NCBI GenBank assembly: GCA_037379345.1 | Contig: CM074523.1 | Location: forward strand, 12,716,551-12,780,550 | DNA length: 64,000 nucleotides | Origin: Perna viridis | Lineage: Eukaryota | Direction: 5' to 3' | Shown here: one piece after another, positions 18,001 to 61,000 of the stretch | Numbering within the stretch: position 1 is the first letter of the stretch | Layout of the letters: every line of letters begins with the position of its first letter | Program-made: the position numbers

Positions 18001-21000
18001 GTTAAATTTCACGTTTTAAATTCCAAATCAACTGAGGATTGACCTAAATCGAGATTAATAACTGATCAAAAGGCACAATTTTGCCGCTCTGCAAGATAGA
18101 CCTAATTGAGGTGATTGTACCGTGTATATGGTTATTGAGCAATCAAGCGGAGCGCAATTCTGACTTAAATCCTGGAATAACAACTCGACATGTAAGCGGA
18201 CATACAAAGCAAATATCATGAAATAACCTAAATACAACGTAGAAAGTAACAAATGGACATAAACAACTCGGTCTCCACTAAAAACTGGGAACATGGACTT
18301 GGTGCATCGGTACCTCTGCTTTTATATAAATTCCGGCGTAGTTAATCATTTAAAGTCAAGAGAGGGATAGATGAAAGAGGAAATATAAACTATGACACGG
18401 TGAACAAATCGGTTATCATAATGCAGATGGATACAACGTTACGATCCACGAATTCTTCATGATGACTATCAACATAATTTTGTTTCAAAAACCTATCTGT
18501 AAGACGTCTGGCGCGGTACAAACATTCGGCGTAGTTACGGCAAGTTCTAGCACATCTAGCGATAGTTTTTTCCTAAATATATTTACTCAATAAAACACCA
18601 CTCTACGTAAAATTTCTTCTAAATCAACCTGATTCTTAGACAAAATGTATAAAAAGAACATGTTCATCAAAAACTGATCGCCTGCCGTGGCCTTTTGAGC
18701 CGTATCAACTTGCTGTAATGTCAGTAAATGTAATATGTTGTTATGTAACGTGTAATCACTTATAATTTCTTATCATTCATGCCATGACTTTAACAATCTG
18801 GGAAACATGTCAGGATTTTATTCCAATAAAGGCGCACTTATAATGCACTAGAATTGACAGTAATCGTAATTTATCAGTTCAAATAATACTCTTTTGGTAA
18901 ATTACAGGTTTATTGCGTTCATGATTTAAACATGAATTGGAATGCTGTTGTAATATATCTTCGCGGTGTCGGAAAATTATTGGTAATTCTATAAAGTAAT
19001 TATTTTAACCGTTTGCGTGCGTGGTTCGGTTTTGTAAATTGTTTTGTTCTGTAGTTTGTTTTCTGTTTGTTTGTGTGTGTGTGTTGCTTCTTTCTGTTAA
19101 TTATACCGAGCATCGTAAAGAAGGGGAAGCTAATGATATACATCCTCCAGCCAACCGGAATAGGTATCAGATAGGTCCGCAGAAATGGTCAGGGTAGTGA
19201 ATTCAAAGTGAAAGTAGCCTTTAAATTGATTTATTTATACACTTCGTCAACACAAGAAAACAAAATTAAAAATATTTTTACAGTGTCTTTATCTCGCATG
19301 CTTATTTTTATCTGGTACGCTTATATTTTTAATAGACAACCGTTTACCTATCATTTTTCTTAGAACTACTTAGTCTTGGGATATCATCCATTGGTGATCG
19401 TTCTAATTTCGATTCACTTTACCATTATAAGTTCATTTTGTACGTCCAATACACGGAATATTCAAAACAAAAGCAAAAGGTTTTTTAATGATAAAAAATG
19501 ACGAAGAGAGTTAACATGTCGAAATACACACGCAAATGTAATTTCCAGTGATCGTCTTCACTTATCAACAGCATTTAATAAATAATTATACATTCTCCTT
19601 CAAGAGACCGACATAGTATTCTGGCAACCAGTTCGATAAAAGACAATGAGGAGACATATCATGTTTAATGCCTTCGTTTTTTTTCCCCTTTTTTGTCTTG
19701 TCTAACCCGGACTTGACTATTCACTGAGCACCTGGTACTTTGTATGTATTGTTTTCTTGTTTTTATGTTCTTTTTTTTGTGTTTCTATTTTCCATGTCTG
19801 GTTTTTGTCCCTGAATTACATTTATTTGATTTCCTCTAGAATCTTGGTTTCCTTGATTACTCTTTCTATTAAAATCCTACCTTAACCCTGCTCGACTAGC
19901 CTGTTCCAGACAATATTAAACATTTATCAGATCAGCATGACAATTAATCTTGCACAGTCCATCTGAATATTCCACGTACTTACTGGTATCAATACAGTTT
20001 TTCTATTGGAGCTGATGGTATGGTATTATTTATCTTCAGTAGACAGTAATTACAAGATAAACTGCACATAAAAGTTCCATTTGAGAATGTACAAAAATAT
20101 CATCACGAAACCACGACTGACATGACCTGTTTTATGATACGGGCTAATAAGTCACGATCTATCAGCTCTTCTTTTGTATTGCAGAGATGACGGACGAATT
20201 ATTTGGTATTATTACAATCAAATATAATCCAAAAACATGACACAAAAACCGTTATAGTATGGCCTAACATGGAACTCGATAATGGGATCAAGTTTACCTA
20301 TATTACAATTGATGAAATACTACTAACCTTCCCTGTAATATAGGCATCATTGATTCCATTCAATTCTCAATAGGACAACTGTCAGTATGATCTCTACAAA
20401 TAGGTGGTGAGTGAATGAGTGTGCTTTGTTTATAATTGCGATTGTGTGGTATTTAACTGGATTTTGATAAAAAAATGAATTCAGGTGGCGTCACTAGTGG
20501 TGGCGGGAACAGTTGGCGCGCACCTTCAGAAGAGGTGTTAGCTGTTGGACAAAACAAGAAAAATAAGGTAAGTTCTTTGTTTGTACACAATAATTGGACA
20601 TGCATAATCGTTGTTTCCAAATACTATTTATATTCTGGAATAAATAACAAACAACATGTGGCCACAGGGGCGTAGCTAGGCCTGTTTTATTTGTATGCAA
20701 AATTACGGCGAAGGGTCGTAGGGGGGTCGCTCAAGGTCCCCCGTGAGTCATTGTATAAAACCTTTATTTCACCTTTAAAATGTGTGTTTTTAATATTGTT
20801 ACTTTTTCCGAAAGTACGCAACGGCGTATTTGCGTATAGGCAACTACGCCCCTGGGCCATATGTAAAATAGAGGATGTTCATAGTAATCATTATATTCAT
20901 TGCGAATCAATATTTGCTTTGATGTGAACAAAATGTAATACCAACATATACACTAAAATGATAAAAAAAAGAACACGACTTGCCTTCCCAATGACCAAAA

Positions 21001-58000: not shown

Positions 58001-61000
58001 CCAACGCTCTAGATCATTTGACCAACTAGGCTATAGACATCCAACGCTCTAGATCATTTGATCAACTAGGCTATAGACATCCAACGCTCTAGATCATTCG
58101 ACCAACTAGGCTATAGACATCCAACGCTCTAGATCATTCGACCAACTAGGCTATAGACATCCAACGCTCTAGATCATTCGACCAACTAGGCTATAGACAT
58201 CCAACGCTCTAGATCATTTGATCAACTAGGCTATAGACATCCAACGCTCTAGATCATTCGACCAACTAGGCTATAGACATCCAACGCTCTAGATCATTCG
58301 ACCAACTAGGCTATAGACATCCAATGCTCTAGATCATTCGACCAACTAGGCTATAGACATCCAACGCTCTAGATCATTCGACCAACTAGGCTATAGACAT
58401 CCAACGCTCTAGATCATTCGACCAACTAGGCTATAGACATCCAACGCTCTAGATCATTTGATCAACTAGGCTATAGACATCCAACGCTCTAGATCATTCG
58501 ACCAACTAGGCTATAGACATCCAACGCTCTAGATCATTCGACCAACTAGGCTATAGACATCCAACGCTCTAGATCATTCGACCAACTAGGCTATAGACAT
58601 CCAACGCTCTAGATCATTCGACCAACTAGGCTATAGACATCCAACGCTCTAGATCATTCGACCAACTAGGCTATAGACATCCAACGCTCTAGATCATTCG
58701 ACCAACTAGGCTATAGACATCCAACGCTCTAGATCATTCGACCAACTAGGCTATAGACATCCAACGCTCTAGATCATTCGACCAACTAGGCTATAGACAT
58801 CCAACGCTCTAGATCATTTGACCAACTAGGCTATAGACATCCAACGCTCTAGATCATTTGATCAACTAGGCTATAGACATCCAACGCTCTAGATCATTCG
58901 ACCAACTAGGCTATAGACATCCAACGCTCTAGATCATTCGACCAACTAGGCTATAGACATCCAACGCTCTAGATCATTCGACCAACTAGGCTATAGACAT
59001 CCAACGCTCTAGATCATTCGACCAACTAGGCTATAGACATCCAACGCTCTAGATCATTCGACCAACTAGGCTATAGACATCCAACGCTCTAGATCATTTG
59101 ATCAACTAGGCTATATAAAATATAATGATAAACTAAACTAAGACTGTTAGTGTGGTTTCTCACAGATACTGATTTAGAAATAAAAAAAAAGATCGTTCGT
59201 TTTTTCTTACACGCATGAACCACTTCCTGTCTAATTTGTTTAATTTTGACTGTCATTAAAGACATTCTATTACGCAGAAAATAATACCATGATATTTTTC
59301 CATACTACTTTACAGATTTAAAGGGCACAAATATGTATCTCTTAAAAAAAACAACGTTGTCAATGAACTAGTCCATTACTTTTTTAAGTTACATTGAGTC
59401 TAGGAAACTTGTCTATACGTTTTTTTTTTTTATTATTTCCTGACACTTCTTACTATAATCACTATGCCATTGATTTGAATAACAGTATGATATTACATTC
59501 GCATGTACAATTATTTAACATGGCAGTACACCAAAACGTTAAGTAGATTAACAAAACAAGCATACACCTTGGTTTTACCATTTACTATCTAATACTATCA
59601 GGGTAAAATAAATATTCAATTTATAATTCCAGGAATAACGAGATGATTGTAGTAACAATATTACCGCCATTATACCTCTCGGTCATATTATAAATAATTT
59701 ATACCTTAGCAGCTTTTAAATGGCCGAGTAAGAGTTTATGACGGCTTGCTCTGTTGATTATAGAATTCAAGGAAAAATTGACGATTGAATTTGTATTGAA
59801 TATACTAGATGTTGCGTTCCGAACATTAATAGTTGGTTATGAATTTAGTATCGCGTTTCAATTTATCTGGGCTTTTTATATGTAGTATTGTATTGTTCTT
59901 TTTTCCGCAGTGAACTTGAATAGGATGCCTCAATAAATGCTGCGGTGATAAAGGTTTAATTGATGTTAGTGAAATACTTTAATTGATGAAATGCAATGTT
60001 AGGAGTGTGTTGATTGTTTTTCTAAGGAGTTGTTCAACAAGTTTTAAAAATATAAATAAACGATTAAGTGCTTTAAACTTTTTTTTGGTTTATTTAATGA
60101 AAAAAAAGTTTTTCGCTTTTTTGCGGTATTTGTGTAGACTAAATCCGGGATGTTAAAAAACGGGTAGACAAGTTCAGAAATTATATTCAACTTAAACATA
60201 GTAAGACAATAGTCCAAAAGTATGAATTCTGCATCTACTGTTACCGTTAAAAACAGTTCTTCGGAGAGGAAAACTAGCAAGCAACAGAAACCTGGACAAC
60301 CAGTCGATCTAGAGGTAAGACAAATTTTAATTTTGAAAAAATACATCACAATGAATACCGCATCTGAATTTTTCAACAATATAAAGGTATTTAAAATCAA
60401 AGTTTTCACACTAAATTCTTTATAGTATGTGTGGTGTGTTTACTCTAGTATAAAAAAGGAGGCTGTTAATGTAAAAATCCGGTTGATCCTATGACATGGT
60501 TGGCACAGGGTAAATTTTATCCCGCTAAATGTGTTGTTCCAATATAATATTTATATCATATGAATATGTCAATAGAGTATATAAGTCTCGTTCTAGATTC
60601 ATTTTTTACCGGAATTTCCGGGTACTCGAAACGCTGTATAACAATGCAAAATCTTCTAGTTCATGATTGTCATACTATATTTATTATGTAGAAATAGTTA
60701 TTTGTCATTTTTATCGGTATTTTTTTACACAGAAAGATTTTTTCCCTTAACACTGAACTCAACGCTTTCTAAATGACAAATATCTATGTTTTTGAATCGT
60801 AGACTAGGACCAATTCTCGTGAAATCACGGGGTCACATGACGAGACTTACATGCCTTATAGTAAAAAGACTTTTTAAAGGACAATGGATGACTCGTAAAA
60901 AATTTTAAAGTTCCCTAACAATGCAACCAAATTTTGCTAAAAACAAATTAATGAGTTATCTCCCTTGTCAGTGGATTTCAATGGTTTCGGTGTATATTTT

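What the first reader, a model, noticed from the sequence alone, without database searches (positions are those of the whole stretch)
20475..60314. Possible 40-kb array of alternative phase-0 first exons (variable N-terminus, constant body)
Seen: five plus-strand segments begin with ATG, stay open and end at a phase-0 donor: 20475-20567, 29777-29821, 37467-37550, 41911-41982 and 60222-60314. The first and last are both 93 nt, both start MNS and both have GQ at codons 25-26. The first also has WRAP, echoing WREP/WKEP. I see no convincing shared downstream exon in the window. Inference: promoter choice could swap N-terminal peptides onto constant exons beyond 64000, an architecture established for UGT1A, clustered protocadherins and plectin. 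Caveat: several AG|GTAAG sites are expected by chance in 64 kb, so only the 37/42 kb pair has independent support.
Basis: inference. Interest (0 to 1): 0.72.

Follow-up and report, generated by a model that had tools for sequence, protein, structure and literature searches.

The report
Two duplicated start exons, not five
Of five proposed alternative first exons, only two are supported: a 4.4-kb-apart pair of old, selectively kept copies of one 24-codon start exon from an unidentified gene, while the other three look like chance.

Summary
As a set they are no more than chance gives. The plus strand has 7 ATG-open, phase-0, GTAAG-ended segments of at least 45 nt, the minus strand has 4, and order-2 Markov simulations give 4.5 +/- 2.4.

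The likeness of the first and last segments (MNS, GQ) is 6 of 31 positions, P about 0.04 for one pair among ten. "WRAP" does not match a profile of the 37/42-kb motif.

The pair 37467-37550 and 41911-41982 is real:
- 13 of 24 codons are identical, with the Met at the same distance from the motif W-[RK]-E-P-D-D-P-A-S-[RK]-L-K.
- Five differences are synonymous, and the third codon position is the least conserved.
- DNA similarity is confined to the 72 coding bases.
- A third copy, P0003, turned up among 1.84 billion proteins at E 1.8e-8. It has the same Met and the same end before GT.

No downstream exon, Pfam family or annotated full-length protein was found. The gene and the splicing pattern therefore remain unknown. 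The best reading is two alternative, or mutually exclusive, 5' coding exons of one unidentified gene in an AT-rich invertebrate-like genome.

The parts
37467..37550 (+). e3: start-codon exon, MSTIRVNTKRWREPDDPASRLKLKVQNM, donor ATG|GTAAGT. A second, positionally homologous phase-0 GT lies after codon 24 (37538|37539, AAA|GTACAA).
   Evidence: Paralogue of e4, with similarity limited to the 72 coding bases. It scores 63.9 bits against the 3-sequence profile, but e3 is itself one of the three sequences in that profile.
41911..41982 (+). e4: start-codon exon, MAYLPVNRHAWKEPDDPASKLKVE, donor GAG|GTAATT. An in-frame stop lies 5 codons upstream of the ATG.
   Evidence: 15 of 24 residues identical to the outside protein P0003 (counted by eye on the alignment).
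20475..20567 (+). e1: candidate only. An ATG-open 31-codon segment with a consensus donor, GC 0.484, and no homologue or paralogue.
29777..29821 (+). e2: candidate only. 15 codons, GC 0.378 (ordinary), no support.
60222..60314 (+). e5: candidate only. 31 codons, GC 0.419, 1.1 kb downstream of a 40-bp satellite, no support.

Best explanation
e3 (37467-37550) and e4 (41911-41982) are two ancient tandem copies of one small 5' coding exon. It comprises a start codon plus 23 codons and carries the motif W-[RK]-E-P-D-D-P-A-S-[RK]-L-K. Both copies belong to an unidentified plus-strand gene of an AT-rich, repeat-rich, invertebrate-like genome. Both end in phase 0.

The most likely mechanism (inferred, not shown) is that each is used in turn, either from its own promoter or as mutually exclusive exons behind a shared non-coding leader. 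Each would be spliced to the same phase-0 acceptor, which lies in an unrecognised short exon or beyond position 64000. The resulting isoforms would differ mainly at residues 2-10 and in their regulation.

e1, e2 and e5 are most likely chance ATG-open stretches that end at donor-like sequences.
For: Shown:
- 13 of 24 codons are identical, with the Met at the same position. There are 5 synonymous differences, plus R/K replacements that need 2-3 base changes. Identity by codon position is 15, 18 and 10 of 24.
- Ungapped DNA identity is 43 of 72 in the coding block against 15-25 of 72 in six flanking blocks. Local alignment gives z = 7.8 for exon against exon, and 0.2 and -1.0 for the 1200-nt upstream and downstream flanks.
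- Neither exon lies in an intra-window repeat.
- An independent third copy, P0003, scores 50 bits at E 1.8e-8 among 1,835,955,588 proteins. It starts at the same Met, and after codon 24 it runs into F/I/V/N-rich sequence beginning with V, that is GTN.
- The profile finds exactly 2 copies among 4244 window reading frames.
- blastp between reading frames found no other similar pair between 37.5-41.9 kb and 42-64 kb in the rows read (first 120 of 1351 rows printed). This argues against two complete tandem genes.

For chance as the origin of e1, e2 and e5.
Against: - No downstream exon was identified. Pfam scans of 568 reading frames found nothing beyond what multiple testing predicts.
- No annotated full-length protein carries this N-terminus (and, which lists only 2 hits).
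- Whether either donor is used is untested.
- P0003 may come from the same genome, as a further paralogue, rather than from another species.
- e1 has exon-like GC (0.484, top 4%) and a perfect donor, so calling it chance is a statistical statement and not a demonstration.
Confidence: 0.55

Rival explanations
1. One reading: all five segments are promoter-linked alternative first exons spliced to constant exons beyond 64000.
For: All five end in phase 0 at good donors. e1 and, less so, e5 are richer in GC than typical open segments. None lies in a repeat.
Against: Their number equals the chance expectation. e1/e5 likeness is P about 0.04 before correction for ten pairs. e1's frame does not appear among the profile hits at E <= 50. 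No homologue of e1 was found. e2 and e5 had no family match worth noting.
Confidence: 0.07
2. e3 and e4 are the 5' ends of two tandemly duplicated genes, or one live gene and one relic start exon. They would not be alternative exons of one transcript unit.
For: Tandem duplication is the simplest origin of the pair. A retained but unused exon cannot be excluded from sequence alone.
Against: Both copies keep the ATG, the open frame, the motif and a phase-0 GT, while the flanks have diverged to randomness. A relic would have decayed like its flanks. No second paralogous exon pair was seen between the 37.5-41.9 kb and 42-64 kb intervals (rows read). No Pfam-recognisable exon lies in the 4.4 kb between them.
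Confidence: 0.2
3. e3 and e4 are consecutive internal exons of one transcript, giving a protein with the motif twice. e4 would be entered through the AG at 41894-41895, which is in frame.
For: A phase-0 AG lies directly before e4's reading frame, and e3 ends in phase 0.
Against: That AG is part of an in-frame TAG and follows a purine-rich, poor acceptor context. The Met sits at the same position in e3, e4 and P0003. There is no likeness upstream of the Met, and P0003 begins there.
Confidence: 0.05
4. The motif belongs to a dispersed mobile element or multicopy family and is not a host-gene exon.
For: The window is rich in repeats, with about 9.5 kb in intra-window repeats besides the satellite. 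A third copy exists elsewhere.
Against: Similarity stops at the coding block on both sides. Only 1 related protein was found among 1.84 billion representatives, which is far too few for a mobile element. There is no Pfam match.
Confidence: 0.05

Closest known systems
Duplicated alternative or mutually exclusive 5' coding exons that arose by tandem exon duplication (general class, recalled from established knowledge; no paper was read)
   Same: Two homologous short exons in tandem with the same phase. Conservation is confined to the coding bases, and the flanks have diverged.
   Different: Actual use, the promoter or leader structure and the acceptor are unknown here. The host gene is unidentified.
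UGT1A and clustered protocadherin variable first-exon arrays
   Same: The idea of several first exons upstream of shared constant exons.
   Different: As I recall, those variable exons are long (hundreds of codons to about 2.4 kb), encode whole domains and number around ten or more. Here there are two 24-28-codon exons, no domain and no constant exon in view. No UGT or cadherin Pfam match appeared in 568 reading frames.
Plectin-type short alternative first exons
   Same: Short N-terminal peptides swapped onto a constant body.
   Different: As I recall, plectin's first exons are unrelated in sequence to one another. Here the two are paralogues that keep the same motif, so promoter choice would change regulation more than it changes the peptide.

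Membership tests
Alternative-first-exon array (variable N-terminus, constant body) | Several exons that each start with an ATG and end at a donor in the same phase | tested here: met
   All five end in phase 0. However, this is met at the chance rate: 7 observed against 4.5 +/- 2.4 simulated.
Alternative-first-exon array (variable N-terminus, constant body) | Evidence that the candidate exons are coding (selection or homology) | tested here: inconclusive
   Met for e3 and e4. Not met for e1. e2 and e5 have no paralogue in the window; outside the window they were tested only against Pfam.
Alternative-first-exon array (variable N-terminus, constant body) | A shared downstream acceptor and constant exons | tested here: not met
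   Nothing was recognisable within the window: Pfam on 176 plus-strand reading frames of at least 30 aa downstream of 42 kb and self-comparison. Sequence beyond 64000 is not available.
Alternative-first-exon array (variable N-terminus, constant body) | A separate promoter or transcription start for each exon, and one-at-a-time use | not testable with these tools
   This needs CAGE, 5' RACE or long-read cDNA.
Tandemly duplicated (mutually exclusive type) exons | Sequence homology between neighbouring exons of the same phase and similar length | tested here: met
   e3/e4: 13 of 24 identical, both phase 0, 24 codons to a GT in both.
Clustered protocadherin or UGT1A loci | Variable exons that encode cadherin ectodomains or the UGT substrate-binding domain | tested here: not met
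   No such Pfam family at E <= 0.01 in 568 reading frames.

The most novel reading that the evidence does not exclude
e3, e4 and P0003 define an undescribed, conserved 24-residue N-terminal module, M-x4-V-x4-W-[RK]-E-P-[DE]-D-P-A-S-[RK]-L-K. It would be kept in at least two alternative copies at the head of a gene with no annotated isoform in the searched protein collections. The array may continue outside the window, and e1 could be a further, unrelated first exon of the same unit.
Probability: 0.3. Interest if true: 0.35.

Novelty: new member of a known kind. Interest (0 to 1): 0.22.

Why it matters
The main value is for annotation. The pair marks the 5' end of a plus-strand gene that word-based and profile searches could not link to any annotated protein, and it shows where two start exons should be modelled. 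It also shows that ATG-open, phase-0, donor-ended stretches occur at about chance frequency in 64 kb of 32% GC DNA. Paralogy or conservation is needed before an exon array is proposed. If e3 and e4 prove to be alternative, they would be an ordinary further example of duplicated 5' exons and would not represent a new mechanism.

Tried and rejected
**Homologue searches**
It was re-sent as the 52-aa stop-to-stop frame P0001.
- Searching longer proteins with P0001 found no candidate.
- The alignment A5 of P0003, P0001 and P0002 gave 35 word candidates, none at E <= 10.
- The first 40 codons from e1's ATG gave 10 candidates, none at E <= 10.
- All three searches cover only proteins up to 2000 aa. 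Isoforms that differ only at the N-terminus may be hidden inside clusters.
- In the profile search of 1.84 billion representatives, the second hit, P0004 (E 9.3e-4), is a protein of repeated KWKEYVQPVN units. It matches profile positions 7-15 only, and I set it aside as unrelated.

**Pfam**
- 148 plus-strand and 149 minus-strand reading frames of at least 50 aa.
- 136 plus-strand frames of 30-49 aa from 42 kb onward, and 135 from 20 to 42 kb.
- The best E-values were 4.3e-4 to 9e-3, one member each. That is about what 568 queries give by chance.
- Searches place the RSN1_TM hit (4.3e-4) in an untested plus-strand frame before 20.2 kb. It is therefore not a downstream exon of any candidate.
- Direct Pfam of ten frames, including those holding e1, e2, e5, P0001-P0003, the 208-aa frame and the RT-like frame, gave nothing below E 0.1.

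**Other searches and tests**
- PDB profile search: best E 1.4.
- ESM Atlas: no usable hit for the 208-aa frame or for e3.
- Full-text search for five peptide motifs: 0 papers.
- Rfam at gathering threshold and ARAGORN found nothing.
- An amino-acid-composition exon finder mostly picked GC-rich repeats and was dropped.
- A candidate exon at 62257 was rejected by eye, because an in-frame stop follows a phase-0 entry.

**Not available**
- No eukaryotic genome collection was on hand, so no orthologous DNA could be compared.

Full report
**Nature of the window.** The 64,000 bases contain no N. GC is 32.4% and CpG observed/expected is 0.87. Neither value resembles human DNA, so I treated the window as an AT-rich invertebrate-like eukaryote. 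The organism was not identified. It is rich in repeats:
- About 9.5 kb lies in repeats shared within the window, with one family present about a dozen times.
- A 40-bp satellite of 48 copies occupies 57200-59115.
- A decayed frame at 49612-50313 (-) looks like reverse transcriptase by eye. Pfam does not confirm this.
- Rfam at gathering threshold and ARAGORN find nothing.

**The observation.** As a set they are not remarkable.
- Stop-free, ATG-started, phase-0 stretches of at least 45 nt ending at GTAAG number 7 on the plus strand and 4 on the minus strand. Sixty order-2 Markov simulations give 4.5 +/- 2.4, maximum 11.
- e4 uses GTAATT. With a donor pattern loose enough to admit it, the counts are 42 plus, 34 minus and 35.5 +/- 5.2 simulated.
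- The first/last likeness is 6 of 31 positions. That has P = 0.041 for a single pair against 352 comparable open stretches, and ten pairs could have been compared. The shared MNS is simply ATGAATTC, which occurs 7 times in the window.
- "WRAP echoing WREP" fails a direct test. A profile built from e3, e4 and the outside copy finds only e3 and e4 among 4244 window reading frames. e1's frame is not listed even at E <= 50.

**The 37/42-kb pair is real.**
- From the ATG, 13 of 24 codons are identical, and the Met lies at the same distance from the motif.
- Five of the differing codons are synonymous. The two R/K replacements need 2-3 base changes. Identity at codon positions 1, 2 and 3 is 15, 18 and 10 of 24. 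This is the pattern of selection on a protein.
- In-register DNA identity is 43 of 72 inside the coding block and 15-25 of 72 in six neighbouring blocks. The 1200-nt flanks on each side align no better than shuffled sequence, with z = 0.2 and -1.0 against 7.8 for the exons.
- The duplication is therefore old, and only the coding bases have been kept.

**A third copy outside the window.** A profile of the two exons was searched against 1.84 billion representative proteins and returned two hits at E <= 0.001.
- P0003 (57 aa, 50 bits, E 1.8e-8) starts at the same Met and matches through codon 24. It then continues as F/I/V/N-rich sequence beginning with V, that is GTN. This is what a read-through into an AT-rich intron looks like.
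- By my count on the alignment, P0003 shares 15 of 24 residues with each of e3 and e4.
- It could be an orthologue or a further paralogue. Its source could not be looked up.
- P0004 is a repeat protein that matches 9 profile positions, and I set it aside.
- The alignment also shows that all three copies have GT as the first two bases of codon 25. Both sites are phase 0.

**What could not be found.** No gene identity emerged.
- Word-indexed searches of longer proteins with the e3 frame, the three-sequence alignment and e1 gave nothing.
- Pfam scans of 568 reading frames found only single hits with E from 4.3e-4 to 9e-3, which is the level chance predicts. These covered all frames of at least 50 aa on both strands and all plus-strand frames of 30-49 aa from 20 kb onward.
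- The strongest hit (RSN1_TM) lies before 20.2 kb.
- PDB, ESM Atlas and a full-text motif search were blank.
- There is a caveat on the protein collections. Isoforms that differ only in a 24-residue N-terminus would be merged in clusters at 50% or 90% identity, so the absence of a full-length hit is weak evidence.

**Interpretation.** The best reading is two paralogous 5' coding exons of one plus-strand gene, used alternatively.
- Own promoters and a shared non-coding leader (mutually exclusive splicing) cannot be told apart here. An AG lies 8 nt upstream of the e3 ATG and 15 nt upstream of the e4 ATG, but in poor acceptor contexts.
- Because both copies keep the same motif, the choice between them would alter regulation and residues 2-10 more than the core peptide.
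- The rivals are tandem genes or a relic exon, serial inclusion, and a dispersed element. Each is weighed in its own section of this report.
- e1 alone among the other three has exon-like composition: GC 0.484, top 4% of 344 open segments. For comparison, e3 is 0.452, e4 0.486, e5 0.419 and e2 0.378. It also has a consensus donor, so it remains a weak candidate.

**Verdict.** The five-exon, 40-kb array is not supported. The window does contain a genuine two-member duplicated start-exon pair, an ordinary example of a known architecture whose host gene is still unknown.

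Noticed in passing
window 57200-59115: A 40-bp satellite of 47.9 copies at 97% match. Its reverse complement matches the head of the 30.4/30.8-kb repeat at 19 of 25 bases. The alignment score is 13 against 8.2 +/- 1.4 for shuffles (maximum 15 of 300), which is suggestive only.
   Followed up: partly
window 30346-31014: Two direct copies of about 210 bp at 90% identity (30403-30614 and 30804-31014), with a 60-bp inverted piece, local GC up to 0.55 and a (GT)n run after 31020. 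By eye the head resembles a tRNA-derived SINE (box A/B consensus recalled). ARAGORN and Rfam give no tRNA match. The mir-297 match (E 1.1e-5, 40.6 bits, below the gathering score of 90) starts inside the (GT)n run and is probably a low-complexity match.
   Followed up: partly
window 3063-3942, 13281-14156, 49254-50183 and about ten shorter copies: A dispersed repeat family at 66-87% identity. Its longest copy overlaps a 234-aa decayed frame at 49612-50313 (-). That frame looks like reverse transcriptase by eye, but Pfam gave no match.
   Followed up: partly
window 1154-1777 (-): The longest non-repeat reading frame in the window: 208 aa, cysteine- and arginine-rich, local GC up to 0.49. It has no Pfam match and no Atlas hit. 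It may be an exon of a minus-strand gene left of the finding.
   Followed up: partly
window, one plus-strand reading frame of at least 50 aa before 20.2 kb (not localised): A single weak Pfam match to RSN1_TM at E 4.3e-4 among 148 frames. It is not among the frames re-tested. It is probably a hydrophobic chance match.
   Followed up: partly
window 55059-55187 and 24673-24855: Short tandem arrays: 24 bp x 5.4 copies at 91% match, and 52 bp x 3.5 copies at 71% match.
   Followed up: no
window 37449: An in-frame ATG lies 6 codons upstream of the conserved e3 start (MNIVYK-MSTIR...). It is not shared with e4 or P0003, so it may act as an alternative start or lie in the leader.
   Followed up: no
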